Shown: positions 3,393-20,674 of the stretch, piece by piece
How positions within the stretch are numbered: position 1 is the stretch's first letter
Layout of the letters: the number at the start of each line of letters is the position of its first letter
Assembly (NCBI GenBank): GCA_041581895.1
Contig: JBFICQ010000002.1
Location: 1-38,346 of the forward strand
DNA: 38,346 bases
Reading direction: 5' to 3'
Source: Polyangiales bacterium
Lineage (GTDB): Bacteria > Myxococcota_A > Polyangia > Polyangiales > Houyiibacteriaceae
Notes under the pieces: generated by a model
Databases searched by the model: none
Seen by the model: the letters and a program-made list of their open reading frames with translations, nothing else
Told to the model about the DNA's origin: nothing
Made by a program: the position numbers and the translations under genes

Positions 3393-4415
3393 TCACCCTC
3401 GACTGGCCCCCGTGGCTTCTAGGTGTTGGCATGTGCGCTCGATGCCCTCCGCCACGCTCACGGATGGGTTGTAACCGAGGTCGCGGCGGGCTTTCTCAAT
3501 GCTGAAATAGTGGTGCGTACACATATAGCGAATCGCGAAGCGTGTGAGGCCGTCTTCGGCATTCAACGTTCCGCCTTTGAGCGTATCGATGCCCTCCTTC
3601 ACGGCGGCGATCGCGTAAACCAACGACTTGGGCGCGCGATACTTGATCGGCGGGAACCCGAGACGCGCTGCAACCTTCCGAACGAAATCCCAAAACGGCA
3701 TCGGCTCGCCGTTGGTGATGAAATAGGCCTCCCCGGCAGCCACGCTTTCGGGGCCGTCAGCCAGAGCTTCGTCAGCGAGGATCACCGCATCGATGAGGTT
3801 GCTCACAAAGGTGTAGTCCGAGAGCCAAACGCCACGACCCACCTGCACGCGCAGCCGCCCTGATTGCGCCTGCTTTAGAAGGGCCGGCATGAAACGCCGG
3901 TCACCGGGTCCAAAGACGACGTGAGGCCTGAGCGCGGTCGTTGCCACCCCGCGGTTTCCGTTTTCGGCGAGCACATACTTTTCTGCAGCGATCTTGCTGT
4001 CAGCGTAGGGCGCCTGCGAGACCGATGAATACGGCAAGCTTTCGTCGCCGTTTTCGATGTCTTTGCCCTCGTATACGACACTTCCGGAGCTGATGTACAC
4101 GAACCGTTTGACGCCCTGTTGCTGTGCAGCCTGGAGCATGTTCTCGGTGCCGCCGAGGTTCACCGCCCAAACCAAATCTTTCTTGTTTTGCTTGGTATGG
4201 ACGATTGAGGCGTTGTGAATGATCGTATCAACGCCCTCGCAGGCCTCCGTGACCGCGGCCTTGTCGGTGATGTCGATGCGTCGGTAATCGATGCCGTCGA
4301 CCGGACACTTTTCAGCCAAATCGATTCCGATGACTCGATCACCCCGAGCCTTGAGGGCGCGAACGATCTCGGCGCCAACGAACCCGCAGGCGCCCGTAAC
4401 CAAGCTGACCGTCAC
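3393..4415 (-). CDS. 3-beta-hydroxysteroid dehydrogenase/isomerase-family NAD(P) enzyme (ERG26/NSDHL/SdmB-like class)
   Basis: LVTGACGFVGAEIV is a Rossmann GxxGxxG motif and YADSKIAAEKYVL is the catalytic YxxxK. Also present are RPHVVFGPGD and the C-terminal FSIEKARRDLGYNPSVS, typical of the 3Beta_HSD family. The GTG start lies 3 nt after the stop of the upstream hydroxylase. Confidence 0.8.
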   Translation of the reverse strand: MTVSLVTGACGFVGAEIVRALKARGDRVIGIDLAEKCPVDGIDYRRIDITDKAAVTEACEGVDTIIHNASIVHTKQNKKDLVWAVNLGGTENMLQAAQQQGVKRFVYISSGSVVYEGKDIENGDESLPYSSVSQAPYADSKIAAEKYVLAENGNRGVATTALRPHVVFGPGDRRFMPALLKQAQSGRLRVQVGRGVWLSDYTFVSNLIDAVILADEALADGPESVAAGEAYFITNGEPMPFWDFVRKVAARLGFPPIKYRAPKSLVYAIAAVKEGIDTLKGGTLNAEDGLTRFAIRYMCTHHYFSIEKARRDLGYNPSVSVAEGIERTCQHLEATGASRG

Positions 4416-4418
4416 GGT

Positions 4419-5093
4419 CTACTCCACGGTGCCGAAGATGATGTCGGGCAACGGCGTGATCGATGCATAGTTCCCCGAGATCATGCTGTGATGGTGCCGG
4501 TCGTGTTTTGCCGCCAAGATGCCCAATGTTTTGACGGGAAAGTGCGGAATATCGACACCGGCATGGTTGAGGATGTTGAACGCCGTGTATGTGACGAACA
4601 GCACCCCCAACGTGTAGAGATGCACGCCACCCACGAGCGCGACCGATCCGAAGAACAAGGAAAGCCCCATGAAGGTTTCGACCGGGTGGAGCAGCAGACT
4701 GTCGATTACTCGGGGGTTGCGAGCTGCATGATGCACTGAGTGAACGCCGCGGAGGATTTTCCACTCGTGAAAGAGGTACCGATGCATGAAGTAGTACCCG
4801 AAATCGTAGATCAAGATTACGGTTACAGCCTCCAGCACGAAGCGCCAAGCGGGAATGGCGTGGTCGTAATAGAGGTAGTCGCCTAGCCCGTACATCACGC
4901 CAAAAATGAGCGCGATCGAGACTGTGCTGTTCAAGACGACCCTCCAGCTGAGCTCGCGATCGGTCGCCGAGCGGTGCGGATCGTCGCTGATCAAGAAGTC
5001 TTGCGCGCGCTCGGAGCGATATGCGTACAGCAAGAGGGCGATCGCGAGGCCTGCCGAAGCGTAGCTTGCGAGTATGACGATCAGGACCTTCAT
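4419..5093 (-). CDS. Fatty-acid-hydroxylase-superfamily membrane di-iron oxygenase (sterol desaturase / C-4 methyl oxidase class)
   Basis: The 224-aa protein has about 4 TM helices and three His boxes: HRYLFH, HSVHH and HDRHHH. This is the HX3-4H / HX2HH / HX2HH signature of the ERG3/ERG25/SMO/CrtZ-type enzymes. Confidence 0.75.
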   Translation of the reverse strand: MKVLIVILASYASAGLAIALLLYAYRSERAQDFLISDDPHRSATDRELSWRVVLNSTVSIALIFGVMYGLGDYLYYDHAIPAWRFVLEAVTVILIYDFGYYFMHRYLFHEWKILRGVHSVHHAARNPRVIDSLLLHPVETFMGLSLFFGSVALVGGVHLYTLGVLFVTYTAFNILNHAGVDIPHFPVKTLGILAAKHDRHHHSMISGNYASITPLPDIIFGTVE

Positions 5094-5120
5094 CGGAATG
5101 TCTGTGAGCTCATTGTAAAC

Positions 5121-6284
5121 CTACTGAACCAATCTGAGAACTAGCGTGCCCGCCACCATGAAGGCGAACACCGCGACCGCCGCCAGTTGAGAAGCCCGCC
5201 GGCCATACGAGGACTTGACCGCCGAGGGGGCCCGAAACGACGTGGAGTCCGCATCGAGCTCCAGTGGCTCGCTGCTCGCGGGGATGCTCTGGCAAAGGAG
5301 AGCCACCCCTTTTGCGATGTCTCGCGCGGAGAGCGCTTCGTGCGTGCGCATGTGGACTCGGCCGCTTCTGACGTGGGCCATGCACGATCCGCAGTAGCCC
5401 GACTCACACGAATGCCCGGGATTCAAGCCAGCCGCCTGTGCACATTCGAGTAGGGTTTTGCCTCGCTCGTACGGAACGGTCCGCGAACGGCCCTGGAGCC
5501 AGAGGCTGAACTTGTCGGGTGCTTCGAACGATTTGACGTCGAGCAGGCGGCGCTCTGTTCGGTCGGGATCGGCGGGCGACACGAATCGCTCGACGTACAC
5601 CAACTCGTCGTGTACCCCGGCTTTACCGAGGGTGTCTTCGACGAGCTCCATGAAAGCCGCTGGGCCGCAAAGATAGAACTCCGCGATGTCGGTGTCATGC
5701 AGGTACTGATGCAACGTCTCGGAAGTGAGATAACCGCTCTCGGAGTCGTAGTGCCGGTGCACGACTAGACGTTCGGGATACTTGCGGATGAGCCGTTCGA
5801 TCTCGTCTGCATAAATGACTGAGTCACGGCGTTGGTTTGCGTAGACGAGGGTGATCGGCCGTTTGGTTGTTACCAAGGCGCTCTTCAGTAAGGAAATGAT
5901 TGGTGTAATCCCGCTTCCGCCAGCATACAGAAACAATGGCGCACTCGAACGGGTCTTCCGGTCTAAAACGAAGCGTCCCTCGGGAACGCTTGCCCGAATC
6001 GTGTCGCCTACGGCGAGATTGTCGTTCATCCAGTTTGAGACTCGACCTCCTTCGACTCGTTTGACCGCGATTTTCGGGGCCTCACCGAGCTCCGGACAAC
6101 TGGACAGGGAGTAGCACCTCGTGACCGCGAAGCCGTTCCAGGGAAGCTCGAAGGTGAGGTGCTGACCGGCTTTGTAGCGGTAGGCGTCTCGAAGCGCAGC
6201 CGGCACCGACAGCTCGAACGAGGTGCAGTCGGCTGTCTCTCGGATCACTGCCGCGATCTCGAGGTCATGGAACTCGACGCTCAT
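5121..6284 (-). CDS. Three-domain oxygenase reductase (FAD/NAD ferredoxin-reductase fold plus C-terminal plant-type 2Fe-2S), KshB/PaaE-like, with a C-terminal TM tail anchor
   Basis: RCYSLSS is the RxYS FAD motif, YAGGSGITP is the NAD motif, and CESGYCGSCMAHV...LLCQS is the Cx4Cx2C...C 2Fe-2S motif. After the ferredoxin domain the protein ends with SQLAAVAVFAFMVAGTLVLRLVQ, a hydrophobic helix. The ATG overlaps the tetR stop (ATGA at 6281-6284). The track ORF's N-terminal extension to 6416 lies inside tetR. Confidence 0.8.
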   Translation of the reverse strand: MSVEFHDLEIAAVIRETADCTSFELSVPAALRDAYRYKAGQHLTFELPWNGFAVTRCYSLSSCPELGEAPKIAVKRVEGGRVSNWMNDNLAVGDTIRASVPEGRFVLDRKTRSSAPLFLYAGGSGITPIISLLKSALVTTKRPITLVYANQRRDSVIYADEIERLIRKYPERLVVHRHYDSESGYLTSETLHQYLHDTDIAEFYLCGPAAFMELVEDTLGKAGVHDELVYVERFVSPADPDRTERRLLDVKSFEAPDKFSLWLQGRSRTVPYERGKTLLECAQAAGLNPGHSCESGYCGSCMAHVRSGRVHMRTHEALSARDIAKGVALLCQSIPASSEPLELDADSTSFRAPSAVKSSYGRRASQLAAVAVFAFMVAGTLVLRLVQ

Positions 6285-6967
6285 GCCCCCTCTTCCAAGC
6301 AGGCCGACTCGAGAACAGCGCCAAGCCGTTCGGGCTTGCAGTAGCTGCGAAGCATGTGCCGAATCGCCTGATTCGCGACCAGTCGAGGAGCCTCTTTGGC
6401 GCCTCGGTCCATCCACATCGCAAGCCTCACTTGTTGGGATGCGATCACGGTTCTCGCCATGAGCTGCGGATCGTCATCGATGAAATAACCATCTTCGATG
6501 CAACGACGAAACATGTCGGCGAAAAGCTCAAGACCAGCGCCAAGCGCTTCGACTTGTTCGGGGCTTCGAAGAAGCTCGATCGTCGACCATGCCGTGACCT
6601 CTTTGAGCTGCATCCGTAGGAAGTCGCGGCGCTTCATGAAAAATGCGAGCTGCATTCGGGTTCCCGCAATGAGCGTCTCGATCGATGGCGCGCCTTCTCG
6701 AAGAATGCCTTGGGCGAGCGCCATGACCTCGCTGAGGCGGCGGCGGTTGACGGCACGGTAGATTTCCCACTTCGATTCGAAGACGCTGTAGAGCGTCGTC
6801 AGGGATAGGCCCGCCTCGGCCGCCACGCGCTGTACCTTCGTCGCCTCGTACCCCACCTCGCCGAATACCCGCTCGGCCGCGTCCAGCACAGCCTCGCGGT
6901 AGAGCTCGCGCTTCTTGTCTTTGAGGCTTTCCTGGGCTTTGTGCTTGGTTTTCGCGGCCGAAATCAA
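6281..6967 (-). CDS. TetR/AcrR-family transcriptional regulator
   Basis: The N-terminal HTH reads RELYREAVLDAAERVFGEVGYEATKVQRVAAEAGLSLTTLYSVFESKWEIY. It is the first gene of the reductase-hydroxylase-3bHSD operon. The only in-frame start at the 5' end is a TTG (6965-6967). Confidence 0.85.
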   Translation of the reverse strand: MISAAKTKHKAQESLKDKKRELYREAVLDAAERVFGEVGYEATKVQRVAAEAGLSLTTLYSVFESKWEIYRAVNRRRLSEVMALAQGILREGAPSIETLIAGTRMQLAFFMKRRDFLRMQLKEVTAWSTIELLRSPEQVEALGAGLELFADMFRRCIEDGYFIDDDPQLMARTVIASQQVRLAMWMDRGAKEAPRLVANQAIRHMLRSYCKPERLGAVLESACLEEGA

Positions 6968-6969
6968 GA

Positions 6970-7033
6970 CTCAGAATGATAGTAAACAAAATCAGAATGT
7001 CAATTCTGAGCTCGGCTAGCGCGCTAGAATGTC
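6970..7033. promoter_or_regulatory. Divergent promoter/operator region with TCAGAAT repeats and a perfect palindrome
   Basis: TCAGAATG occurs at 6971-6978. The palindrome TCAGAAT-gtca-ATTCTGA lies at 6992-7009. A further copy, TAGAATGTC, lies at 7025-7033 (8/9 identical to CAGAATGTC at 6993-7001). On the minus strand, TTGACA (6998-7003), a 16-nt spacer and TATCAT (6976-6981) form a near-consensus sigma70-like promoter that ends about 8 nt from the tetR TTG. On the plus strand, TAGAAT (7025-7030) lies 7 nt before the ATG at 7038. Confidence 0.55.
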
Positions 7034-7037
7034 CCCC

Positions 7038-8300
7038 ATGTCTGATGGGATCACCGAAAGCCAAGCTCTTTTCAATCGGTTCACGGATCAACTGAAGGCC
7101 CTGGGCGACAAGATCGTTGGCCCCACGGGTGCGAAAGGCCCGCGAGAGCGAGCCGAGGGGTTTCGTTACCTGGTCGCCTTGATCGCAGCGGCCCAAGAGC
7201 TCGAGATGGAGGTCGATCGGACGCGTCCGAGGCTGACGCGCATGTTCACCCCCATGCGAAGTTTCATCGCGGACGGAACCGACACCCTCTATCACGAGGC
7301 AAAGCTCGACGAATCGCATTCGTATCACGTGACCCTCGGCCGTGGGGACGATCTCTTTTTCTCGATCGTCGTCTACGCGAGCGACGAGGAAGGTATGCGC
7401 GAGATGGTTAGCTTTCTGATCGATGACGACATCGTTTTCGAGGCTGATGAAGAAAATCAGGTCGCTACGATCCATATCAGTGCGAAGCGTCCAAAAGACG
7501 CAAAGAACTGGCTCGAGCTCAAAGGACGACAGCCGTTCGTTCTCACTCGCGAGTACTTTCCCGAATCCGTGATCGAGGTCGACGACGGAAAGTATAGGCA
7601 GGCCACCATGTCGATACGGTGCGTAGACGATGTACCCCCCCCAGATGCATACGGGCCAAACGACCTTGCATCCGGACTCGATCGCATCGTCGCGTTCGTG
7701 CAAGACACCGTCGACGCGGCGCTCGGCATTTCGACGTACGTTGCGCTCAACATGATTGAATATGACCAAGATGACATCACGCACCCGACCCGAATTGGCC
7801 CAGATGGAAGTCTCGTCCCCGATGAGGAGCGTCTCGATCGCTACACGCCAGACGAGTTGGTCGAGATGGTTGACCCGAAGGTAGTCGCCAACAACCTACC
7901 GGGCCCTGGCATCGGCTACGTGGGTGCCTCGTTCAAGCTTGCCGACGACGAGGCGATCTTGATCGAAGGCAGAGACGTTCCTTGCCGCTACTGGTCCTGC
8001 CAGTTGTTCAACCACTTTCTGCAATCGGGTGACTATCGCTATCACGCCGTATCGCTCAACAACCGGCAGGTGCGGTTCGATGATGATGGCTCGTTTCGGA
8101 TTTACGCGAGCCGCGAAAACCCAGGTGTCCAAAATTGGCTCGACACGCAAGGCCATAGGAGAGGTCAGATAGTACTTCGAACCTTGCTCGCGGAGGCCGA
8201 AATGGACGCGGCAATGTCGGTCATCAAGATCGCGGACATCCCGAAAAGCGATCTAGGCTCTCCCGCGAGGACGGTGGGGCGGGACAAACCGATGCCGTAG
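7038..8300 (+). CDS. Conserved hypothetical protein, possibly DUF1214-type
   Basis: The coding-like composition is clear. The N-terminal PRERAEGFRYLVALIAAAQELE resembles the remembered ..RAEGyRyL.. motif of DUF1214 proteins, which is weak evidence. I prefer the ATG at 7038 over 7029 because 7029 lies inside the TAGAAT -10-like hexamer. Confidence 0.5.
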   Translation: MSDGITESQALFNRFTDQLKALGDKIVGPTGAKGPRERAEGFRYLVALIAAAQELEMEVDRTRPRLTRMFTPMRSFIADGTDTLYHEAKLDESHSYHVTLGRGDDLFFSIVVYASDEEGMREMVSFLIDDDIVFEADEENQVATIHISAKRPKDAKNWLELKGRQPFVLTREYFPESVIEVDDGKYRQATMSIRCVDDVPPPDAYGPNDLASGLDRIVAFVQDTVDAALGISTYVALNMIEYDQDDITHPTRIGPDGSLVPDEERLDRYTPDELVEMVDPKVVANNLPGPGIGYVGASFKLADDEAILIEGRDVPCRYWSCQLFNHFLQSGDYRYHAVSLNNRQVRFDDDGSFRIYASRENPGVQNWLDTQGHRRGQIVLRTLLAEAEMDAAMSVIKIADIPKSDLGSPARTVGRDKPMP

Positions 8301-8316
8301 GCGTTCGTGAGATTCT

Positions 8317-14538: not shown

Positions 14539-14543
14539 CGACC

Positions 14544-16200: not shown

Positions 16201-16202
16201 GG

Positions 16203-17126
16203 TCAGCTCTTTTTCTCTCGCTCCTGCTTGGCTCTTTTATAAGCCTTGGTGAGAAGCTGTGGCGGGTGATGCCCCCACTCGCTCACTTTTGGGTGGATGA
16301 CGGGTTTCCATGTCTCGTCGTCGACCTCGACGCCGCCGTACCCGAACTCGAAGTGAAACCCCGACGGCGTGTAGCCGTAGAACGAGAACATCTTGTCGTT
16401 GGGATGGCGTCCGAGGGTCTGGTGAACCATCCCGCCCGAAAACAGGAAGCGGTCATAGCAGAGCCCCACTTCATCCATCGCGCCGGCCTGCACCATGAAG
16501 TGATGAATCCGCTTGCCGTGACCCTCGCCGAACGCGAACGAGTGATGCCGCGCATTGGCGTGCATGAAGGTCACGTCGATCTGGTGGCCGAAGTACTCGC
16601 AACGGATGTAGTCACTCAGCTTGAGGCCGAGCATGTTCGCGTAAAAGGCCTCGTGCTCTTTGGCGTTCTTCGAAGCGACGACCACGTGGCCCAGCCCCTG
16701 TTCGTCCGCGACGAATCCCGAGCGAACGACCTCTGAAACGAAAGGCTCCTCGGACATTTTCGGACCGTGGTAGAGCTCGCAAGGATTGCCAGCCGGGTCT
16801 TGGAACCGAGCCAGCGCGTCGACGTTTCGATGTGCCGCATCTTCGGGGCTGGCTTGCGTCACTTCATGCCCCGCAGCTTTCAAACGCCCGATTACCGCCT
16901 CGAACGCTTCGGAGCTGTCGACTTCCCAACCGGCCGCGGCGAGATCGTCAGCGGGCCCGGGTTCGATGAAAAAACGTTGAAAATGGCGGTCCATGCGTAG
17001 CCCAAAGCCTTGCTCGCCTTTGTCGCCCACGATGCCTAGGCCCAGAATCTTCGTGCCGAAGTCTCTCCATGCTGCGAGGTCGCTCACCTCGAAGACCAGA
17101 TACCCCAACTGCGACACACCGCTCAT
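16203..17126 (-). CDS. Type I extradiol ring-cleavage dioxygenase (BphC/HsaC-like, VOC superfamily)
   Basis: MSGVSQLGYLVFEVSDLAAWRDFGTKILGLGIV...FQDPAGNPCELYHGP is collinear with the BphC N-terminus (SIRSLGYMGFAVSDVAAWRSF...). The second domain contains LGHVVV...HHSFAF...HHF. A GGAGG RBS precedes the ATG at 17126. Confidence 0.8.
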   Translation of the reverse strand: MSGVSQLGYLVFEVSDLAAWRDFGTKILGLGIVGDKGEQGFGLRMDRHFQRFFIEPGPADDLAAAGWEVDSSEAFEAVIGRLKAAGHEVTQASPEDAAHRNVDALARFQDPAGNPCELYHGPKMSEEPFVSEVVRSGFVADEQGLGHVVVASKNAKEHEAFYANMLGLKLSDYIRCEYFGHQIDVTFMHANARHHSFAFGEGHGKRIHHFMVQAGAMDEVGLCYDRFLFSGGMVHQTLGRHPNDKMFSFYGYTPSGFHFEFGYGGVEVDDETWKPVIHPKVSEWGHHPPQLLTKAYKRAKQEREKKS

Positions 17127-17186
17127 TTGCCTTGCCTCCGCGCGGAGCATAGTACGTCGTCACAGTCTCGCACGGAGAAAGGAACC

Positions 17187-17960
17187 ATGACGGAGCTCCT
17201 GGAACTTCAAGGGAAGGTCGTCGTCGTCACTGGCGGCACGATGGGCGCTGGGAAGGGAATCGCCCTTCGCTTCCTCGAAATGGGCGCCCATGTGATCATC
17301 TGTGCACGGAACGAGCCCGCGACGCCGTTAACAGCCGAAGGTCGCGGGGCTCTCTTCATCGCGGCCAATGTGCGCAAGCTCGAAGACCTCGACCGGGTCA
17401 TCGAAGAGGTGATGCAGCGCTACGGGCGCCTCGATGTGCTCATCAACAACGCCGGCGGGTCACCTCCAGCCGACGCGGCAACGGCTTCGCCGCGGTTCTC
17501 AGCTGCAATCATTGAGCTCAACCTGATCGCGCCACTCAACTTCGCGCAGAAGGCAAATGCCATCATGCAGAAGCAAGACAGCGGGGGCTGCATCATCAAC
17601 ATCGGAAGTGTGAGCGGACTTCGTCCCTCCCCCGAAACCGCCGCTTATGGAGCGGCCAAGGCCGGCCTTCTCAACTTGACCACATCGCTCGCCGTGGAGT
17701 GGGCGCCCAAAGTTCGCGTCAACGCGATCGCCGCGGGCATGATCCTCACCGAGAAGGCAGAGCTACATTTCGGCAAGGGGGGAGTGCGCGAAGCGGTCGA
17801 GAAGACGGCACCGATGGGACGGATGGCGCTCCCGAAAGACGTCGCCGACGCGTGCCTGTTCCTCGCGTCGCCACTTGCGAGCTATATCACTGGCGCGAGC
17901 ATTCTTCTTCACGGCGGCGGCGAATGGCCGGCGTTTCTCCGAGCTTCCCAGGCAGAGTGA
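17187..17960 (+). CDS. Short-chain dehydrogenase/reductase (SDR)
   Basis: The gene starts at MTELLELQGKVVVVTGGTMGAGKGIAL and has NNAGGS and YGAAKAGLLNL (YxxxK). A GAGAAAGGA RBS lies upstream. The track ORF start at 17127 overlaps the divergent dioxygenase promoter region. Confidence 0.8.
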   Translation: MTELLELQGKVVVVTGGTMGAGKGIALRFLEMGAHVIICARNEPATPLTAEGRGALFIAANVRKLEDLDRVIEEVMQRYGRLDVLINNAGGSPPADAATASPRFSAAIIELNLIAPLNFAQKANAIMQKQDSGGCIINIGSVSGLRPSPETAAYGAAKAGLLNLTTSLAVEWAPKVRVNAIAAGMILTEKAELHFGKGGVREAVEKTAPMGRMALPKDVADACLFLASPLASYITGASILLHGGGEWPAFLRASQAE

Positions 17961-18040
17961 GCAGGATTGCCGGGGCCTTCGGCACCTTGGTTAGTTGCAG
18001 CTTGCGGAATCGGGCTGCAAGCGCCACCTTCGCAGACCAA

Positions 18041-18775
18041 ATGGAGTCTGACATTCAACCCTCTCTCGCGGTCGAAGGTGTCGAGGACCAAGCGCACGGG
18101 CTCGCGATCCCGGCTTGGACGTTCATGATCGCCTTCATCGTCGGCGGCACGTCCTTTCACATCTGGCTGCACCACACCGTCCGCGAAACATACAACGTGC
18201 ACCAGATTGGCCTGATCTTCTTTTTGATGGTCAATCTCTTGGTGAACTTCTGGGAGATCGGCCTCTTCGTTTGCAAAGACCAAATCCGCGACGAATACGA
18301 AGCCACCAAAGACGCATATCGAGGACGCGAAACCGAGCGCTTCAGTGAGATGTTCCGAAAACGCATTCCGGTTCTGAAGCTGCTCTCCTTTGGCCAATGG
18401 ACCGAGGTTTGGTCGAGTTACGCGCTCTTCGACCCCGGCTATGCGAGCCGTAGCTCGTTTGGGTTCAATATCGATTTCGGCAACGGCTGGTCGACGCCGA
18501 TCTTCGCGGGGCTTTTCGCTTTCGGCATGACCTTTGAGCTCATGCCCGCGCGCATCCTCGGCATCATCGGCGTGATCATGTTCTGGCAGATGTTCTACGG
18601 AACCATTGTGTACTTTTTTCAGTTCTTCAATGCCGGGCGACACAAAGGCCACTCACTTGGAACGCTGGTTTTGTTCATAGGGACTAGCAACGGCCTGTGG
18701 TTCGTCTTCCCGCTCTGGGGTCTTGCCCTCAGCATCCAGATGATTCTCAACGACTCCTACAGCCTCTTCTTCTGA
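18041..18775 (+). CDS. EXPERA-domain-like membrane protein (emopamil-binding protein / sterol delta8-delta7 isomerase-like)
   Basis: The 244-aa polytopic protein is collinear with remembered human EBP blocks. NFWEIGLFV aligns with [39 protein letters not shown] aligns with [56 protein letters not shown]...[11 protein letters not shown] aligns with [22 protein letters not shown]...NALWLVLPG. The match is divergent, with Asp where EBP has Glu in the CMET block. The start is at MESDIQ (18041), and the upstream part of the track ORF overlaps the SDR. Confidence 0.5.
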   Translation: [244 protein letters not shown]

Positions 18776-18789
18776 GGGCTGTCTGTCTC

Positions 18790-19599
18790 TCAGATCGGGC
18801 CGAAGAGCGCCGCAGCGAAGTCCAACAAGAAGAGCATGATGAGACCCGCAGCGCAGGCCGCCCCCGCCGTCATCGTCAAGCTCCAGTTGGCGCTTTGTTT
18901 CTCGTCGAGTTGATAGAAGATCGGAAAGCTTGCGATGAAGTAGAGCGAGTAGAAAAGCGAGCCGTAGGCCAGCATGCGGTCCACGTCTTTGTAATGAAAC
19001 TGAGTGGCGATCCACGGGTTTGCCATCGTCCGCGTTTCCATCCATGCCCAACAATAGGCGACCACGACGACGAATACCGGCCAGATCACGCTCCCAAATG
19101 GAAGCCCCGAGGTGCGAAGCCGGCGCAACACGACGACTGCTGTGGTGTGATAGGTGATGAAGTACGCCTGCGTCAGAAAGTACATCATGACCGGCACGCG
19201 TTGTTCCCCCGAGCCCACGAGTGTGGAATCGAGATTGAGCTCGATCATTGGGTAGTCGTAGACCATCCCGAGGATGTCGAAGAAGTACTCCGAGCCGAAA
19301 TAGTTCGCGGCAAGGCCGAAGATCGCAATGTAGAGATTGGCTTTGAACCAATACGTCTGGTACCAGGCTCTCCCGTGCGGTCTTTCGTCGCGAATCAAGG
19401 CTGGCACGACCACCAGCGGAAGCGCCACGGCCAACCCGATGATGAAAAAGCCCCATTCCCCGATGCGATCGGTGATCCCCAGAGCCATCACCAGGCCGAT
19501 CAGGGCCATCCAGATCGGCGAGTAGATCAGAAAGAACTTTTCGCCCCACGCTTTGCTCGCGTTTTCGGAGAACCAACGGGGCATCCTAAGCTCGGACAT
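18790..19599 (-). CDS. Cycloeucalenol cycloisomerase (plant CPI1)-like membrane protein
   Basis: The protein resembles remembered Arabidopsis CPI1 along its length. WFSENASKAWGEKFFLIYSPIWMAL aligns with LAANPSKRWGELFFLFYTPFWLTL. WYQTYWFKANLYIAIFGLAANYFGSEYFFDILG aligns with WKDRYWVKANLWIIVFSYVGNYFWTHYFFKVLG. YFLTQAYFITYHTTAVVVLRRLR aligns with FFLTHVCFLFYHVASNITLRRLR. YGSLFYSLYFIASFPIFYQLDEK aligns with VGCLFYAIYFIVSFPMFFRMDEK. The C-terminal LDFAAALFGPI aligns with LDLWRLFLGPI. The start is either ATG 19599 or ATG 19584. Confidence 0.8.
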   Translation of the reverse strand: MSELRMPRWFSENASKAWGEKFFLIYSPIWMALIGLVMALGITDRIGEWGFFIIGLAVALPLVVVPALIRDERPHGRAWYQTYWFKANLYIAIFGLAANYFGSEYFFDILGMVYDYPMIELNLDSTLVGSGEQRVPVMMYFLTQAYFITYHTTAVVVLRRLRTSGLPFGSVIWPVFVVVVAYCWAWMETRTMANPWIATQFHYKDVDRMLAYGSLFYSLYFIASFPIFYQLDEKQSANWSLTMTAGAACAAGLIMLFLLDFAAALFGPI

Positions 19600-19663
19600 C
19601 GATGGTCGGAAGCTAGAATAGGATTCTTTCTCTTTGCAACTTTGTTTTATGCTCCCTGCAAGC

Positions 19664-20674
19664 ATGCACGGACCCGCCCAAGGCCCTCGACCAAAGCTCC
19701 CGATGCCTTCCGGTTGGTTTCGCATCGCAACGAGCGAAGACGTTCACGCGGGGCACGTAGGTATCTTTCAGATCAACGGCCAAGAAGTCGTCGCTTTTCG
19801 CGAGGAGCAGGGTGCGGTGACCGTCGTCGACCCGATCTGTCCTCACATGGGCGCGCATCTCGGTTACGGAGGGCGCGTGGTCGACGGTGCCCTACGGTGT
19901 CCGTTTCACGGGCTGCGATTTGGCCCGGACGGAAAGTGCATCGGCACCGAGTATCCCGGCGATCCTGAGGTGGACCTTAGCCTCCGCACCTGGCCGGTCA
20001 TGGAGCAGCTTGGCTGCATCTTCGTCTATGCGGGCAACGGAGCCGCACCTACGTGGGAGCTTCCTGAGTACGACACCGCCGGGTGGAGCAAACCGATCAC
20101 CAAAGTGTTGGTTCTCAAGGGCCACATCCAGGACATCGCCGAGAACGCGGTCGACTTCGGTCATTTCGCCGCAGTCCATCAATACTCGGACCTGTCAGAT
20201 CCGACGTTGCAAATTGACGGTCCGCGTCTGCACTCAAAGTTTGGATCCACACGGGCAAATCCGTTCTTTCCCAAGGGTGAGATTCAATCGATCTTCGACA
20301 CCGATGTGCATGGCCTCGGTCTCTCGGTGACGGACCTACGGGTACCGAAGCTAGGCATTCACTACCGCGTTCTACTCACGGCGACCCAGCTCGACGCGGA
20401 GAACATGTCTTTTGGCATTGGCGTGAGCTCCGAGTATCCCCCGCCGTTCGTCCCCAAAGCGATGCGCAACCTGCGACTGCCTTGGCGGGCCGTAACTCAC
20501 GCGCAAATGCGCATCGTACATCGATATGTCATTCGCGATGTGCTGCAAGACAAGGAGATTTGGGAGCACAGGGTCCCGATAGAGAGCCCCGCCCTAATCC
20601 CAGGCGACGGCCCTATTGCGAAGTTCCGACGCTGGGTGAAGCAGTTCTATCCAAGAGACTGGGGAGCGCGCTGA
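19664..20674 (+). CDS. Rieske [2Fe-2S] non-heme-iron oxygenase, alpha-subunit-only type (KshA / Neverland / SdmA-like class)
   Basis: CPHMGAHL-(x17 between His and Cys)-CPFHGLRF is the Rieske motif. ENAVDFGHFAAVH is the mononuclear Fe ligand motif. The C-terminal KEIWEHRVPIESPALIPGDGPIAKFRRWVKQFY is typical of the steroid-acting KshA/Neverland clade. Start options are ATG 19649, 19664 and 19703. Confidence 0.8.
   Translation: MHGPAQGPRPKLPMPSGWFRIATSEDVHAGHVGIFQINGQEVVAFREEQGAVTVVDPICPHMGAHLGYGGRVVDGALRCPFHGLRFGPDGKCIGTEYPGDPEVDLSLRTWPVMEQLGCIFVYAGNGAAPTWELPEYDTAGWSKPITKVLVLKGHIQDIAENAVDFGHFAAVHQYSDLSDPTLQIDGPRLHSKFGSTRANPFFPKGEIQSIFDTDVHGLGLSVTDLRVPKLGIHYRVLLTATQLDAENMSFGIGVSSEYPPPFVPKAMRNLRLPWRAVTHAQMRIVHRYVIRDVLQDKEIWEHRVPIESPALIPGDGPIAKFRRWVKQFYPRDWGAR

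What the first reader, a model, noticed from the sequence alone, without database searches (positions are those of the whole stretch)
3393..20674. 17-kb enzyme island combining plant-type sterol biosynthetic enzymes with catabolic-type steroid oxygenases and a sulfotransferase
Sixteen consecutive genes in about seven short operons are almost all redox, isomerase or transferase enzymes suited to a hydrophobic polycyclic alcohol.

Four belong to families whose characterised members catalyse successive post-cycloartenol steps in plants. These are the FA-hydroxylase-superfamily di-iron enzyme (SMO/ERG25 class, 4419-5093), the 3beta-HSD/decarboxylase class enzyme (3393-4415), the cycloeucalenol cycloisomerase CPI1-like protein (18790-19599) and the EBP/EXPERA delta8-delta7-isomerase-like protein (18041-18775). 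Three SDRs are available as 3-ketoreductase candidates.

The same island also holds the hallmark parts of actinobacterial 9,10-seco steroid degradation. These are a KshA-like Rieske oxygenase (19664-20674), a KshB-architecture reductase (5121-6284), a BphC/HsaC-like extradiol dioxygenase (16203-17126), a GMC oxidase (12949-14538) and a TetR regulator. It lacks KstD, HsaAB, HsaD and any beta-oxidation genes.

A PAPS-type sulfotransferase and an ALDH add conjugation and oxidation chemistry.

Bacterial sterol synthesis is known in some Myxococcota and methanotrophs. To my knowledge, a single locus juxtaposing CPI-like, EBP-like, SMO-like, Rieske, extradiol-dioxygenase and sulfotransferase genes has not been characterised. 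It could encode tailoring of a cycloartenol-derived sterol to an oxidised or sulfated product, or a sterol remodelling/scavenging pathway.
Basis: partly seen in the sequence, partly recalled or inferred. Interest (0 to 1): 0.85.

Follow-up and report, generated by a model that had tools for sequence, protein, structure and literature searches.

The report
Sterol-remodelling gene island in marine myxobacterium
An uncultured sediment myxobacterium carries a conserved 17-gene island for reworking the ring system of plant- and algal-type sterols; it includes a bacterial look-alike of the human sterol isomerase EBP, but whether it makes, remodels or breaks down sterols is still open.

Summary
Window 3393-20674 carries 17 back-to-back genes with the predicted families, and the gene calls match NCBI's calls on MAGs of the same organism, an uncultured Polyangiales (Myxococcota).

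The CPI1 call is solid. The "EBP-like" protein has no Pfam hit, but its AlphaFold model matches only human EBP, and a profile alignment places EBP's key residues.

The "catabolic hallmarks" reading is weaker. The Rieske oxygenase is neither KshA nor SdmA. The reductase is membrane-anchored and pairs with the di-iron hydroxylase. GMC and ALDH belong with that hydroxylase and an NSDHL-like dehydrogenase. Only the extradiol dioxygenase is truly catabolic-type.

Comparative genomics shows a mosaic of two portable modules:
- CPI, GMC, ALDH, FA-hydroxylase and 3β-HSD, plus CYP51-ferredoxin in relatives, recur in Gamma- and Alphaproteobacteria. This window has lost CYP51.
- The EBP-fold protein with this Rieske type, and separately with a DAP_DH_C dehydrogenase, recurs in Actinobacteria (one a cultured isolate, others inferred).

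The dioxygenase, sulfotransferase and DUF1214 are clade-specific.

My best reading is a TetR-controlled pathway that reworks 9,19-cyclo/4-methyl sterols, probably acquired ones. De novo biosynthesis is a close rival. No sterol cyclase lies near any of 87 loci, and whole genomes could not be searched.

The parts
3393..4415 (-). NSDHL/ERG26-like 3β-hydroxysteroid dehydrogenase (candidate sterol-4α-carboxylate 3-dehydrogenase, decarboxylating)
   Evidence: Pfam 3Beta_HSD 5e-60. Best PDB hit is human NSDHL 6jkg at E 2e-39; the next hit is 2.6e-19. GxxGxxG and Y137-x3-K141 are present. It is not SdmB: 93 bits against a cut-off of 600. It is 55-68% identical to the gene beside FA-hydroxylase/ALDH/GMC in HdN1, Zavarzinia and others.
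4419..5093 (-). Membrane di-iron hydroxylase of the FA_hydroxylase superfamily (candidate sterol C-4 methyl hydroxylase)
   Evidence: Pfam FA_hydroxylase 1e-24. Three His boxes are present: HRYLFH, HSVHH, HDRHHH. It lies next to the NSDHL-like gene here and in other phyla. Orthology to ERG25/SMO is not shown.
5121..6284 (-). FNR-type reductase with a C-terminal plant-type 2Fe-2S domain and a hydrophobic tail; likely electron donor of the di-iron hydroxylase and possibly of the Rieske oxygenase
   Evidence: Pfam FAD_binding_6, NAD_binding_1 and Fer2. RCYS motif, Cx4Cx2C...C cluster motif and a C-terminal hydrophobic stretch. Best NCBIfam match is PaaE at 236 bits. The same TetR-reductase-hydroxylase order occurs in L033.
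6281..6967 (-). TetR-family regulator; first gene of the TetR-reductase-hydroxylase-3β-HSD operon (4-bp overlap with the reductase)
   Evidence: Pfam TetR_N 1e-12. 75-79% identical copies lie next to ALDH-GMC in architecture-B relatives. A TetR also sits in the HdN1 module.
7038..8300 (+). DUF1214 protein of unknown function; travels with the sulfotransferase
   Evidence: Pfam DUF1214. Only PDB relative is 6ans, 'uncharacterized protein'. It lies beside the sulfotransferase and the CYP51 block in L053.
8317..9114 (-). Short-chain dehydrogenase/reductase (SDRa)
   Evidence: Pfam adh_short 4e-45. Conserved in L008 and L005.
9111..9980 (-). Short-chain dehydrogenase/reductase (SDRb); candidate 3-ketosteroid reductase
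   Evidence: Pfam adh_short 4.5e-55. 88-90% identical in L008 and L009. 57% identical copy near CYP51-CPI in L063.
10056..11303 (+). PAPS-type sulfotransferase; first gene of the sulfotransferase-ALDH-GMC operon
   Evidence: Pfam Sulfotransfer_3 4e-43. PRSGTT 5'-phosphosulfate-binding loop. Present in both gene orders in relatives.
11300..12952 (+). Aldehyde dehydrogenase (candidate 4-formyl to 4-carboxy sterol step)
   Evidence: Pfam Aldedh 6e-133. 47-54% identical and adjacent to GMC in the HdN1, Zavarzinia and Pseudomonadales CPI loci.
12949..14538 (+). GMC flavoprotein alcohol oxidoreductase (candidate 4-hydroxymethyl to 4-formyl step)
   Evidence: Pfam GMC_oxred_N and GMC_oxred_C. Choline-dehydrogenase-like at 308 bits, below cut-off. 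Cross-phylum partner of the ALDH.
14544..15065 (-). Small lipoprotein with a CXXCH haem-c motif (weak cytochrome P460 hit); role unknown
   Evidence: Pfam Cytochrome_P460 6e-5, below cut-off. Signal/lipobox sequence and CFACH motif. Conserved in L009, L031, L050, L051 and L055.
15118..16200 (-). DAP_DH_C / DapB-like NAD(P) dehydrogenase; follows the dioxygenase after a 2-bp gap
   Evidence: Pfam DAP_DH_C 2e-23. Nearest PDB entries are native amine dehydrogenases and DapB-like proteins, 6g1h at 4e-28. A 36% identical homologue sits with TetR and an EBP-fold gene in Haloechinothrix.
16203..17126 (-). Type I extradiol (catechol ring-cleaving) dioxygenase of the BphC/HsaC class
   Evidence: Pfam BphC_D1 plus Glyoxalase. 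TIGR03213 297 bits and HsaC 236 bits, both below cut-off. PDB hits: BphC 1han 1e-60, HsaC 2zi8 3e-56. The metal and catalytic His/His/Glu/His/Asp/Tyr positions are conserved in the alignment. Found in 23 of 24 clade genomes.
17187..17960 (+). Short-chain dehydrogenase/reductase (SDRc), upstream of the EBP-fold gene
   Evidence: Pfam adh_short_C2 7e-55. NCBIfam PRK07856 at 370 bits. Found in architecture-A relatives only.
18041..18775 (+). Membrane protein with the EBP (EXPERA) fold; candidate sterol Δ8-Δ7 isomerase or related ring-B carbocation enzyme
   Evidence: No Pfam, NCBIfam or PDB sequence hit. AlphaFold2 pLDDT 89. Foldseek's only real hit is human EBP 8w0r: prob 1.00, TM 0.53/0.59; the next hit has TM 0.27. 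hhalign of the family profile against human EBP gives E 1.4e-4 over 109 columns and aligns W124, Y127, D131, Y134, D145, N217 and W220 with EBP W101, Y104, D108, Y111, E122, N193 and W196.
18790..19599 (-). CPI1-type cycloeucalenol cycloisomerase homologue (opens the 9β,19-cyclopropane ring)
   Evidence: 453 homologues; IMG names many 'cycloeucalenol cycloisomerase'. 36% identity over the full length to Arabidopsis CPI1 as I recalled it from memory, E 7e-53 (that sequence is unverified). Lies next to CYP51 in relatives.
19703..20674 (+). Rieske non-haem-iron oxygenase with a KshA_C catalytic domain; a distinct subfamily (neither KshA nor SdmA)
   Evidence: Pfam Rieske plus KshA_C. CPH...CPFH and HFAAVH motifs. 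KshA in PDB aligns at 3.5e-25 over residues 25-183 only. SdmA model 51.6 bits against a cut-off of 600. IMG names on 73-75% identical relatives are 'cholesterol 7-dehydrogenase'. 33-36% identical full-length homologues lie beside distant EBP-fold genes.

Best explanation
The island is a TetR-controlled set of enzymes that reworks the tetracyclic core of protosterol-type sterols, meaning 9β,19-cyclo and 4-methyl sterols such as cycloartenol or cycloeucalenol. The host is an uncultured marine/sediment Polyangiales bacterium. The island is a mosaic of two portable modules plus clade-specific genes.

Module 1 (protosterol maturation):
- The CPI1 homologue opens the cyclopropane ring to a Δ8 sterol.
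- The membrane di-iron hydroxylase, fed by its own membrane-anchored FNR/2Fe-2S reductase, hydroxylates a C-4 methyl.
- The GMC oxidoreductase and the ALDH take the alcohol to the aldehyde and then the acid. This is the AlkB/AlkJ/AlkH logic.
- The NSDHL-like 3β-HSD oxidises C-3 and decarboxylates.
- An SDR re-reduces the 3-ketone.
- The nearest relatives also carry TetR-CYP51-(ferredoxin)-NTF2-like protein for C-14 demethylation between the Rieske and CPI genes. That block is deleted in this window.

Module 2 (ring B):
- The EBP-fold membrane protein shifts the Δ8 bond, or does related carbocation chemistry.
- The KshA_C-type Rieske oxygenase hydroxylates or desaturates next to it.
- A DAP_DH_C dehydrogenase assists.

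Clade-specific additions:
- A BphC/HsaC-class extradiol dioxygenase cleaves a catecholic (aromatised-ring) intermediate.
- A PAPS sulfotransferase, with DUF1214, sulfates a hydroxyl.

Physiology: I judge it more likely that the substrates are acquired sterols from algal or plant detritus or prey, which are remodelled and partly degraded, than that this is pure de novo biosynthesis.

Shown: gene content, family or fold assignments, intact active-site motifs, conserved clustering.
Inferred: every substrate, the order of steps, the roles of GMC and ALDH in C-4 demethylation, the existence of an aromatic intermediate, and the physiological direction.
For: Family and fold assignments.

Module 1 is conserved across phyla. 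In gamma proteobacterium HdN1 (L076), an SdmB/HpnA-like SDR, 3β-HSD (58% identical), FA-hydroxylase, ALDH, GMC and TetR are transcribed divergently from CYP51(-ferredoxin), a 201-aa protein and CPI. The flanks are unrelated: a subtilase, a T2SS ATPase and alaS. The same set occurs in Zavarzinia marina, several Pseudomonadales and Moraxellaceae MAGs, and a distant Polyangiaceae MAG. Of 15 distant loci, 13 have CYP51 and 8-9 have the GMC/ALDH/hydroxylase/3β-HSD set.

The P450 next to CPI in a relative is CYP51: M. capsulatus CYP51, E 1e-129.

Lee et al. 2023 found that SdmA alone stalls at the 4-methyl aldehyde, which leaves room for a dedicated ALDH.

Module 2 is conserved elsewhere:
- Distant EBP-fold genes (36-40% identical) sit in operons with two Rieske/KshA_C genes that are 31-36% identical to the window's Rieske protein over their full length. 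Those operons also carry a P450, a 3β-HSD, a SnoaL-like protein, an MFS transporter and TetR (L092, L097).
- In Haloechinothrix, an EBP-fold gene lies with TetR and a DAP_DH_C protein that is 36% identical (L096).

Evidence for a remodelling or catabolic direction:
- TetR control in all versions.
- No cyclase-like ORF within 10 kb of CPI in any of 87 loci.
- The dioxygenase active site is intact.
- Architecture-B relatives add an HsaD-class hydrolase (187 bits), a LipL-type esterase and a TRAP binding protein.
- Spongiibacteraceae and Halieaceae, lineages that carry CPI and/or CYP51, are proven steroid degraders.
- Mycobacterial CYP51 and 8,14-Bsr are thought to act on host lanosterol.
Against: - The whole genomes could not be searched for oxidosqualene cyclase, so de novo synthesis is not excluded. 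Polyangia include sterol producers, and 121 Osc sequences are reported from Myxococcota MAGs.
- No KstD, HsaAB, HsaEFG, side-chain β-oxidation or sterol-uptake genes lie in the window or in the flanks fetched. Holert 2018 never assigned the full 9,10-seco gene set to a phylum outside Actinobacteria and Proteobacteria.
- Sulfation fits a product better than a catabolic intermediate.
- Within the clade, unrelated flanking genes (MscK, a T2SS-C-like gene) are conserved as often as the island genes. Within-clade conservation of the dioxygenase and the sulfotransferase is therefore weak evidence of function.
- The EBP assignment rests on a TM-score of 0.53-0.59 and a profile E-value of 1e-4. No Pfam hit reaches threshold.
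- The FA-hydroxylase could equally be a C-5 desaturase or a C-25 hydroxylase type.
- No route to a catechol is encoded in any obvious way.
Confidence: 0.45

Rival explanations
1. De novo sterol biosynthesis and tailoring. The organism makes cycloartenol with a cyclase encoded elsewhere. The island matures it by C-4 demethylation, cyclopropane opening and Δ8-Δ7 isomerisation, then decorates it by Rieske desaturation or hydroxylation and by sulfation. The end product would be a sulfated or oxidised membrane or signalling sterol. This is essentially the first reader's first option.
For: - The host belongs to Polyangia, which contains sterol producers.
- CPI1, ERG25-27 and CYP51 homologues are reported as syntenic sterol-synthesis genes in myxobacteria.
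- 121 Osc and 145 Cyp51 sequences are reported in Myxococcota MAGs, including cycloartenol-synthase types in Polyangiaceae MAGs.
- The enzyme order CPI, CYP51, EBP mirrors the plant pathway (established knowledge).
- IMG labels relatives of the Rieske protein as cholesterol 7-desaturase, a biosynthetic-type enzyme.
- A sulfotransferase and conjugated sterols fit a product; E. salina shows evidence of further sterol modification (abstract).
- There are no β-oxidation or ring C/D degradation genes.
Against: - No cyclase or epoxidase lies within 10 kb of CPI in 87 loci, although myxobacterial sterol genes are often clustered.
- The intact catechol-cleaving dioxygenase, and the HsaD-class hydrolase in relatives, have no place in any known sterol synthesis.
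- Several TetR repressors, an esterase and a solute-binding protein look like inducible substrate use.
- The window has lost CYP51 from the cluster.
- Both modules also occur in Gamma-/Alphaproteobacteria and Actinobacteria, which are not known as sterol producers. That last point is my own knowledge and was not tested here.
Confidence: 0.35
2. The substrate is not a sterol. It would be another polycyclic or hydrophobic alcohol, such as a different triterpenoid or a terpenoid-aromatic natural product. The sterol-like families would be recruited paralogues, and the dioxygenase would act on an ordinary aromatic catechol.
For: - All scores against curated equivalog models are far below cut-off: OleD 247/580, SdmB 93/600, SdmA 52/600, HsaC 236/450, BphC 297/366, choline dehydrogenase 308/605.
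- The EBP link is remote.
- The FA_hydroxylase, GMC, ALDH and SDR families are substrate-promiscuous (established knowledge).
Against: - CPI1 and CYP51 are families with no known non-sterol substrates. CYP51 in relatives is 1e-129 to a proven sterol 14-demethylase.
- NSDHL is the best solved relative of the 3β-HSD by 20 orders of magnitude.
- The three features peculiar to protosterols (the 14-methyl, the 4-methyls and the cyclopropane) each have a matching enzyme type in the cross-phylum module.
Confidence: 0.1
3. Two or more unrelated pathways lie side by side only through inherited gene order in one bacterial family. One would be a sterol set. The other would be a remnant aromatic meta-cleavage or sulfation set.
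For: Unrelated flanking genes (MscK 21/24, T2SS-C-like 23/24) are as conserved as the island genes within the clade. The dioxygenase, the sulfotransferase and DUF1214 were not found in the cross-phylum versions.
Against: - The dioxygenase stays embedded between sterol-module genes in two different gene orders. It keeps a shared divergent promoter region with the EBP-fold gene.
- The sulfotransferase heads the operon that holds ALDH and GMC here, with overlapping stop and start codons. In L053 it moves with DUF1214 to the CYP51 side.
- No other meta-cleavage pathway genes (ring-hydroxylating dioxygenase large and small subunits, dihydrodiol dehydrogenase, hydratase/aldolase) are nearby.
Confidence: 0.08

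Closest known systems
Plant post-cycloartenol pathway (SMO1, 3β-HSD/D, CPI1, CYP51, HYD1/EBP)
   Same: The same enzyme types occur for the same protosterol features: a di-iron methyl oxidase, a decarboxylating 3β-HSD, a CPI1 homologue (about 36% identity, recalled sequence), CYP51 in relatives and an EBP-fold protein.
   Different: - Extra GMC and ALDH travel with the hydroxylase.
- The hydroxylase is short (224 aa) and has its own FNR/2Fe-2S reductase in place of cytochrome b5.
- The EBP-fold protein is not recognisable by Pfam.
- No SMT, C-14 reductase or cyclase lies nearby.
- The island is under TetR control and also holds a catechol dioxygenase and a sulfotransferase.
Myxobacterial sterol-synthesis gene sets (Hoshino & Gaucher 2021; Sandaracinus amylolyticus cluster, Lee et al. 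2024 preprint)
   Same: The phylum is the same, and CPI1, ERG25/26-type and CYP51 homologues are reported as largely syntenic.
   Different: - Those clusters include SQMO and OSC. Here none lies within 10 kb in 87 loci.
- That paper infers that EBP arose within eukaryotes, whereas an EBP-fold family is present here.
- The 80 best-scoring CPI relatives retained from the GTDB scan include many Gammaproteobacteria, Alphaproteobacteria and Chloroflexi at 49-60% identity, and no cultured sterol-producing myxobacterium.
CYP51-ferredoxin-8,14-Bsr clusters (Lee, Giner & Welander 2026) and the M. tuberculosis Rv0762c-Rv0768 locus
   Same: Relatives of the window carry CYP51, a small ferredoxin and a roughly 200-aa protein with no Pfam hit in exactly this arrangement. 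The taxa match those reported: uncultured Myxococcota, Gamma- and Alphaproteobacteria. From my own knowledge, an ALDH also sits at the Mtb locus; the TIGR04284 'aldehy_Rv0768' model scores 249 bits.
   Different: - The window itself has lost this block.
- Identity of the 201-aa protein with 8,14-Bsr is inferred from context only.
- The CPI, GMC, ALDH, hydroxylase and 3β-HSD partners are not discussed in the parts of that paper that I read.
SdmAB(C) bacterial C-4 demethylation (Methylococcus, Enhygromyxa, Calothrix)
   Same: The proposed task is the same: removal of C-4 methyl groups. The island holds a Rieske oxygenase and 3β-HSD-family proteins.
   Different: The Rieske and 3β-HSD proteins here fail the curated SdmA and SdmB models by a wide margin (52 and 93 bits against cut-offs of 600). 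The candidate oxidase is a di-iron hydroxylase helped by GMC and ALDH.
Aerobic 9,10-seco steroid catabolism (KshAB, HsaC, HsaD, KstR)
   Same: A KshA_C-domain Rieske oxygenase, a reductase with KshB domain order, a BphC/HsaC-class dioxygenase with an intact active site, TetR regulators and, in relatives, an HsaD-class hydrolase.
   Different: - All score below the equivalog cut-offs.
- No KstD, HsaAB, HsaEFG, side-chain or ring C/D genes are present.
- The reductase pairs with the di-iron hydroxylase.
- The Rieske type is shared with EBP-fold operons in other phyla and is labelled cholesterol 7-desaturase by IMG.
AlkB-AlkJ-AlkH terminal methyl oxidation (alkane degradation)
   Same: A membrane di-iron hydroxylase, a GMC alcohol dehydrogenase and an ALDH together convert a methyl group on a hydrophobic substrate to a carboxylate. 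This is a functional analogy based on established knowledge.
   Different: The hydroxylase family differs (FA_hydroxylase rather than AlkB/desaturase). The set is coupled here to a decarboxylating 3β-HSD and to sterol-specific enzymes. No activity has been tested.

Membership tests
CPI1 (cycloeucalenol cycloisomerase) | Full-length sequence homology to plant CPI1 | tested here: met
   IMG/KO name 'cycloeucalenol cycloisomerase' on many of the 453 homologues. Published myxobacterial CPI1. No Pfam or NCBIfam model hits it.
CPI1 (cycloeucalenol cycloisomerase) | Opens the 9β,19-cyclopropane ring of cycloeucalenol | not testable with these tools
   Needs an enzyme assay or a heterologous host.
EBP / EXPERA (sterol Δ8-Δ7 isomerase) | Match to Pfam PF05241 above the gathering score | tested here: not met
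   No hit for the window protein. Only 2 of 60 family members give E of about 0.003. The family profile finds nothing in PDB sequences.
EBP / EXPERA (sterol Δ8-Δ7 isomerase) | EBP fold (five-helix membrane bundle) | tested here: met
   AlphaFold2 pLDDT 89.4. Foldseek top hit is human EBP 8w0r_A: prob 1.00, E 4.6e-3, TM 0.53/0.59. All other hits have TM of 0.29 or less. The CPI model, used as a control, gave no PDB match.
EBP / EXPERA (sterol Δ8-Δ7 isomerase) | Catalytic and ligand residues of human EBP (H76, E80, E122, N193, W196; from published work, my own knowledge) | tested here: inconclusive
   hhalign (E 1.4e-4, prob 52%) aligns D145 with E122, N217 with N193 and W220 with W196, plus W124/Y127/D131/Y134 with W101/Y104/D108/Y111. 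The H76/E80 helix was not aligned by the tool. By eye, NFWE72IGLF resembles LVIE80GWF.
ERG25 / SMO (sterol C-4 methyl oxidase) | FA_hydroxylase domain with three histidine boxes | tested here: met
   Pfam 1e-24. HRYLFH, HSVHH and HDRHHH boxes.
ERG25 / SMO (sterol C-4 methyl oxidase) | Orthology to ERG25/SMO rather than to other superfamily members (ERG3, CH25H, OlsE and others) | not tested
   No reference sequences or tree were available. The only NCBIfam hit is a weak OlsE match. Adjacency to the NSDHL-like gene in several phyla is supportive context.
ERG26 / NSDHL (sterol-4α-carboxylate 3-dehydrogenase, decarboxylating) | Closest characterised relative is NSDHL; Rossmann motif and YxxxK present | tested here: met
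   PDB 6jkg at E 2e-39 against 2.6e-19 for the next hit. GACGFVG and Y137ADSK. Best NCBIfam model is OleD, below cut-off, so the subfamily is not settled.
SdmA / SdmB (bacterial C-4 demethylase pair) | Score above the NCBIfam equivalog cut-offs (600 bits) | tested here: not met
   Rieske protein 51.6 bits; 3β-HSD 93.4 bits.
KshA (3-ketosteroid 9α-hydroxylase oxygenase) | Rieske domain plus KshA_C catalytic domain with iron ligands | tested here: met
   Pfam Rieske 3e-17 and KshA_C 2.5e-21. CPH...CPFH and HFAAVH motifs.
KshA (3-ketosteroid 9α-hydroxylase oxygenase) | Full-length, orthologue-level similarity to characterised KshA | tested here: not met
   PDB KshA entries 4qdc and 2zyl align over residues 25-183 only, E 1e-24 to 1e-25. 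IMG names on relatives are 'cholesterol 7-dehydrogenase/desaturase' or generic.
KshB (KSH reductase) | FNR-like FAD/NAD domains followed by a plant-type 2Fe-2S domain, partnered with KshA | tested here: inconclusive
   The domain order is met. The best model is PaaE. The gene lies in the operon with the di-iron hydroxylase, 13 kb from the Rieske gene, and the protein has a C-terminal membrane tail.
HsaC / BphC (type I extradiol dioxygenases for bulky catechols) | Two-domain VOC fold with His/His/Glu metal ligands and His/Asp/Tyr catalytic residues | tested here: met
   The alignment to 1han shows GLGH, RHH, RIHHFM and LGRHPND...SFY...E all conserved.
HsaC / BphC (type I extradiol dioxygenases for bulky catechols) | Equivalog-level score for HsaC or BphC | tested here: not met
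   HsaC 236 bits (cut-off 450); BphC TIGR03213 297 bits (cut-off 366).
[quoted passage not shown] | KstD, KshAB, HsaAB, HsaC, HsaD, HsaEFG, side-chain and ring C/D genes | tested here: not met
   Only class-level KshA-, KshB- and HsaC-like genes lie in the window. HsaD-like genes occur only in architecture-B relatives. The rest of the genome could not be searched.
Bacterial sterol biosynthesis gene cluster | Oxidosqualene cyclase and squalene epoxidase in the cluster or genome | tested here: inconclusive
   There is no ORF of 450 aa or more with DCTAE/DDTA plus QW motifs within 10 kb of CPI in 87 loci, and none in the window or 10 kb to its left. Whole genomes could not be searched with these tools.
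PAPS-dependent sulfotransferase | Sulfotransfer domain with a 5'-phosphosulfate-binding loop | tested here: met
   PF13469 at 148 bits. FPRSGTT loop. The acceptor is unknown.

The most novel reading that the evidence does not exclude
Bacteria outside the known sterol producers and degraders would own a previously undescribed, portable toolkit for dismantling protosterols. It would have four parts:
1. A fourth kind of C-4 demethylation: a di-iron hydroxylase plus GMC alcohol oxidoreductase, ALDH and an NSDHL-like decarboxylase. This would be distinct from ERG25-27 and from SdmAB(C).
2. CPI1 used to open algal or plant cyclopropyl sterols.
3. A bacterial branch of the EBP/EXPERA superfamily working with a new KshA_C-type Rieske oxygenase on ring B. 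This would contradict the inference that EBP arose within eukaryotes.
4. In marine Polyangiales, extradiol cleavage of an aromatised sterol ring, or sulfation of the product.

This would make Myxococcota sterol transformers or degraders. It would also give the long-orphan bacterial CYP51s of non-producers a physiological role.
Probability: 0.3. Interest if true: 0.85.

Novelty: new variant of a known kind. Interest (0 to 1): 0.66.

Why it matters
Three open questions become directly testable with cloned genes.

1. What do CYP51 and its neighbours do in bacteria that are not known to make sterols (Mycobacterium, marine Gammaproteobacteria, Zavarzinia)? The conserved module found here is TetR + CYP51 + ferredoxin + NTF2-like protein + CPI + hydroxylase + GMC + ALDH + 3β-HSD. 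It suggests a complete stripping of the three protosterol-specific features.

2. How do bacteria isomerise the Δ8 bond, and where did EBP come from? A bacterial EBP-fold family of about 360 sequence clusters sits next to sterol-type enzymes in Myxococcota and Actinobacteria. This bears on the argument that eukaryotes inherited the early sterol pathway from myxobacteria but invented the late, desaturation-modifying steps themselves.

3. Who transforms algal 4-methyl and cyclopropyl sterols in sediments, and into what? That matters for reading sterane and sterol biomarkers. A ring-cleaving dioxygenase and a sulfotransferase inside such a cluster would imply unknown seco- or sulfated sterol products.

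If the island is simply biosynthetic, it still extends the known enzymology of bacterial sterol synthesis.

Tried and rejected
- **Sequence searches of the two membrane proteins against PDB, singly and as a profile.** Only chance hits, or none. A narrow-profile hhalign against human EBP gave only a 41-column match at E 0.021. A broader profile was needed.
- **SdmA/SdmB hypothesis for the Rieske and 3β-HSD pair.** Rejected on NCBIfam scores. A Rieske gene next to CPI in a distant myxobacterial MAG (L079) is not SdmA either, at 64 bits.
- **Cyclase search.** I looked for cyclases by motif (DCTAE/DDTA plus QW repeats) in all fetched loci and found none. I could not obtain a myxobacterial OSC sequence to search with.
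- **Supplements.** None of the window's clade, HdN1 or Zavarzinia is listed in the supplements of Lee 2023, Brown 2023, Lee 2026 or Hoshino 2021, or else the files were not held or were truncated.
- **Literature searches** for a described protosterol catabolic pathway, for myxobacterial steroid degradation and for sterol sulfotransferases in myxobacteria. Nothing specific turned up.
- **Context of distant EBP-fold proteins.** Three of seven look-ups hit contigs too short to show any context. One long contig showed no sterol link.
- **CPI structure model.** Medium confidence only (pLDDT 69) with no PDB match. It is useful only as a negative control for the EBP hit.
- **Foreign-DNA island.** I considered this and set it aside because G+C is uniform.

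Full report
**What is in the sequence**

The window has a uniform G+C of about 0.60. Between 3393 and 20674 there are 17 closely packed genes. I checked start and stop codons. The genes equal NCBI's calls on four MAG assemblies that carry the identical FA-hydroxylase protein.

The eight transcription units are:
- TetR, reductase, FA-hydroxylase, 3β-HSD (minus strand, 6967 to 3393; the TetR and reductase genes overlap by 4 bp).
- DUF1214 (plus strand).
- SDRb, SDRa (minus strand).
- Sulfotransferase, ALDH, GMC (plus strand, overlapping).
- BphC-like dioxygenase, DAP_DH_C dehydrogenase, haem-c lipoprotein (minus strand).
- SDRc, EBP-like protein (plus strand).
- CPI-like protein (minus strand).
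- Rieske oxygenase (plus strand).

The flanks are unrelated:
- Poly-γ-glutamate capsule genes on the left.
- An Rce1-like protease, a T2SS-C/PDZ protein, MscK, an FG-GAP protein and a nosZDFY cluster on the right.

No cyclase, epoxidase, CYP51, KstD, HsaAB or β-oxidation gene is in the window or in the 10 kb to its left.

**Who carries it**

Homologues of both membrane proteins come almost entirely from MAGs labelled Polyangiales, Myxococcales, Sandaracinaceae or 'delta proteobacterium', including SG8_38. The host is therefore an uncultured marine/sediment Polyangiales.

**The two unannotated membrane proteins**

*CPI-like protein (18790-19599).* It has 453 homologues, many named 'cycloeucalenol cycloisomerase' by IMG. 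It aligns over its full length at 36% identity with Arabidopsis CPI1 as I recalled that sequence. Hoshino & Gaucher (PMC8237579) already list CPI1 among myxobacterial sterol genes. I accept this assignment.

*EBP-like protein (18041-18775).* It has no Pfam, NCBIfam or PDB sequence match, even as a family profile. Three other lines of evidence link it to EBP:
- An AlphaFold2 model from 26 homologues is confident (pLDDT 89.4). Its only meaningful Foldseek match in the PDB is human EBP: prob 1.00, TM 0.53/0.59. Everything else has TM of 0.29 or less. A CPI model run as a control matched nothing.
- An exhaustive profile search found about 360 clusters of this family. A 60-member profile aligns to human EBP over 109 columns at E 1.4e-4. 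I verified the human EBP sequence against PDB 6oht.
- That alignment puts the nearly invariant W124, Y127, D131, Y134, D145, N217 and W220 on EBP W101, Y104, D108, Y111, E122, N193 and W196. Two of the 60 members touch Pfam EBP weakly.

I file it as a remote EXPERA-fold relative. The isomerase activity is inferred.

**The enzymes read as 'catabolic hallmarks'**

*Rieske protein.* It has Rieske and KshA_C domains and intact ligand motifs. However:
- It scores 51.6 bits on the curated SdmA model, whose cut-off is 600.
- It aligns to crystallised KshA only over residues 25-183.
- IMG labels 73-75% identical relatives 'cholesterol 7-dehydrogenase' and none KshA.

*Reductase.* It has the FNR plus C-terminal 2Fe-2S layout, as KshB does. 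Its best model is PaaE. It ends in a hydrophobic tail and lies in the operon with the membrane di-iron hydroxylase. It is most simply that enzyme's electron donor.

*3β-HSD.* It is not SdmB (93 bits). Its best solved relative by far is human NSDHL, the decarboxylating C-4 enzyme.

*Dioxygenase.* It is a real BphC/HsaC-class extradiol enzyme with every metal and catalytic residue conserved. It falls below both equivalog cut-offs.

**Comparative genomics**

A scan of one genome per GTDB species with a CPI profile found 185 relatives, of which 80 loci were kept. I compared every window protein, plus the extra proteins seen in relatives, with these loci.

*(a) Within the Polyangiales clade.* There are two gene orders.
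- Architecture A (the window, L005, L008, L009, L031, L050, L051, L055): Rieske, [TetR-CYP51-201aa], CPI, EBP, SDRc, BphC, DAP_DH, (P460-like), GMC, ALDH, sulfotransferase, SDRb, SDRa, DUF1214.
- Architecture B: ferredoxin, (TetR), CYP51, CPI, LipL-like esterase, amine-oxidase-like flavoprotein, EBP, BphC, HsaD-class hydrolase, (TRAP binding protein), GMC, ALDH, TetR, (reductase, FA-hydroxylase).

The P450 is CYP51, with E 1e-129 to M. capsulatus CYP51. The hydrolase's best model is HsaD.

Of 24 species with enough sequence, 22-23 keep EBP, BphC, GMC, ALDH and CYP51 near CPI. Unrelated flanking genes are kept just as often. Within-clade conservation alone therefore proves little. The stronger signal is that the genes stay clustered through the A/B rearrangement.

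*(b) The window, and L050/L051, lack the TetR-CYP51-201aa block.* Their nearest relatives have that block between the Rieske and CPI genes. Here only about 100 bp separate the two start codons.

*(c) Across phyla.* In HdN1, an SdmB/HpnA-like SDR, 3β-HSD (58% identical), FA-hydroxylase, ALDH, GMC and TetR are transcribed divergently from CYP51(-ferredoxin), a 201-aa protein and CPI. Housekeeping genes flank the set. The same set is found in Zavarzinia marina, several Pseudomonadales, Moraxellaceae and 'Pseudomonadota' MAGs, and a distant Polyangiaceae MAG. The 201-aa protein matches, by context, the NTF2-type 8,14-sterol reductase described in 2026 as co-localising with CYP51 and its ferredoxin in these very groups.

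*(d) The EBP-fold family elsewhere.* Distant members (36-40% identical) lie in operons with two Rieske/KshA_C genes that are 31-36% identical to the window's Rieske protein over their full length.
- One operon also holds a P450 and a 3β-HSD (L092).
- Another holds MFS, SnoaL-like, DUF3237 and TetR genes (L097).
- In the cultured actinobacterium Haloechinothrix aidingensis, an EBP-fold gene follows TetR and a DAP_DH_C protein that is 36% identical to the window's.

The island is therefore a fusion of two modules that exist independently in other phyla. The dioxygenase, the sulfotransferase and DUF1214 are clade-specific.

**Mechanism**

Each of the three features that set protosterols apart has a matching enzyme type in module 1:
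- The 14α-methyl: CYP51.
- The 9,19-cyclopropane: CPI.
- The C-4 methyls: the only candidates are the di-iron hydroxylase, GMC, ALDH, the NSDHL-like dehydrogenase and an SDR.

I infer a stepwise C-4 demethylation. One oxygenase step is followed by two dehydrogenations (the AlkB/AlkJ/AlkH logic), then decarboxylation and ketoreduction. This fits the report that bacterial SdmA alone stalls at the 4-methyl aldehyde.

Module 2 acts at C-7/C-8/C-9. The EBP-fold enzyme would move the Δ8 bond left by CPI. The Rieske enzyme would then hydroxylate or desaturate.

The dioxygenase needs a catechol, which implies an aromatised ring. No obvious route to one is encoded, so this is the weakest link in the scheme.

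**Direction of the pathway**

Points for remodelling or catabolism of acquired sterols:
- TetR control in every version.
- No cyclase near CPI in 87 loci.
- The dioxygenase, hydrolase, esterase and binding protein.
- Both modules occur in taxa not known to make sterols. That is my own knowledge and was not tested here. Some of those taxa are proven steroid degraders.
- The proposed use of CYP51 and Bsr on host lanosterol by mycobacteria.

Points for biosynthesis:
- The host class, the published myxobacterial CPI1/ERG25-27 synteny, and many Osc genes in Myxococcota MAGs.
- The sulfotransferase.
- The absence of any side-chain or ring C/D degradation genes.

I put remodelling/catabolism at about 0.45 and biosynthesis at about 0.35.

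**Novelty**

Already known:
- CPI1, ERG25/26 and CYP51 in myxobacteria.
- CYP51-ferredoxin-Bsr clusters.
- Orphan CYP51s in Gamma- and Alphaproteobacteria.

Not found in the literature I could search:
- The cross-phylum CPI + GMC + ALDH + hydroxylase + 3β-HSD module.
- A bacterial EBP-fold family tied to a distinct Rieske type.
- The union of these with an extradiol dioxygenase and a sulfotransferase.

I rate the finding a new variant of a known kind.

Noticed in passing
window 19599-19703 (junction); compare L008 7433-9988 and L009 7437-9997: The nearest relatives have TetR, CYP51 and a 201-aa protein (about 2.6 kb) between the Rieske and CPI genes. The window has only about 100 bp there, and no CYP51, ferredoxin or 201-aa homologue anywhere else. 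The same loss occurs in L050 and L051, which are only 74% identical in CPI.
   Followed up: yes
L076 248-10798 (gamma proteobacterium HdN1); also L080, L081, L070-L073, L087: A self-contained, TetR-containing module flanked by housekeeping genes. It holds an SdmB/HpnA-like SDR, 3β-HSD, FA-hydroxylase, ALDH and GMC, transcribed divergently from CYP51(-ferredoxin), a 201-aa protein and CPI. It recurs in Gamma- and Alphaproteobacteria.
   Followed up: yes
L092 2410-8672; L097 5636-11322; L096 7366-9720: Distant EBP-fold family members sit in operons with twin Rieske/KshA_C oxygenases, plus a P450, 3β-HSD, SnoaL-like protein, MFS transporter and TetR. In Haloechinothrix one sits with a DAP_DH_C dehydrogenase and TetR. 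All are annotated 'hypothetical'.
   Followed up: partly
L001 9399-10004 and homologues (for example L076 9325-9921): A 201-aa protein with no Pfam or NCBIfam hit always lies between CYP51/ferredoxin and CPI. By context it is probably the NTF2-type 8,14-sterol reductase reported in 2026. This was not verified by sequence.
   Followed up: partly
window 5124-5195 (C-terminus of the reductase, minus strand): The FNR/2Fe-2S reductase ends in a hydrophobic stretch (LAAVAVFAFMVAGTLVLRLV) that looks like a membrane tail anchor. This is unusual for this reductase class.
   Followed up: no
window 14544-15065 (-): A 173-aa predicted lipoprotein with a CFACH haem-c motif and a sub-threshold cytochrome P460 hit. 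It is conserved beside GMC in architecture-A relatives. Its role is unknown.
   Followed up: no
window 15118-16200 (-): The nearest solved relatives of the DAP_DH_C protein are native amine dehydrogenases (6g1h, 6iau, 7qzl). In architecture A it follows the dioxygenase, in the position where architecture B has the HsaD-like hydrolase. Reductive amination of a keto intermediate is conceivable.
   Followed up: no
L088 18912-20566 (about 7-8 kb left of the window's start): A second, shorter sulfotransferase (294 aa) lies next to a TauE-type sulfite/sulfonate exporter in the same organism.
   Followed up: no
window 31900-37890 (-): A nitrous-oxide reductase cluster: nosZ 35413-37389, nosD 34052-35479, nosF 33172-34074, nosY 31900-32895 and a c-type cytochrome 37456-37890. 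This suggests N2O respiration in this myxobacterium.
   Followed up: no
window 196-3213 (-): Poly-γ-glutamate capsule genes: a CapB-like Mur ligase (1948-3213), CapC (1503-2024) and a 436-aa ORF with no Pfam hit (196-1506). They lie directly next to the island.
   Followed up: no
L067-L069, L078 (Chloroflexi/Anaerolineales MAGs): CPI homologues at 57-59% identity occur in Chloroflexi. No CYP51 lies within 10 kb; only weakly similar (29-36% identical) SDR-family genes are nearby. Their role was not examined.
   Followed up: no
L079 4790-10744 (distant Myxococcales MAG): TetR, CYP51, ferredoxin, a 201-aa-like protein, a second CYP51-like P450, a Rieske protein (32% identical to the window's; SdmA model only 64 bits) and CPI lie in one row.
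   Followed up: partly
L031 (CAXMND010000172.1): A MAG labelled 'uncultured Coxiellaceae bacterium' carries the full architecture-A island at 77-90% identity to the window. The bin label or the binning is probably wrong.
   Followed up: no
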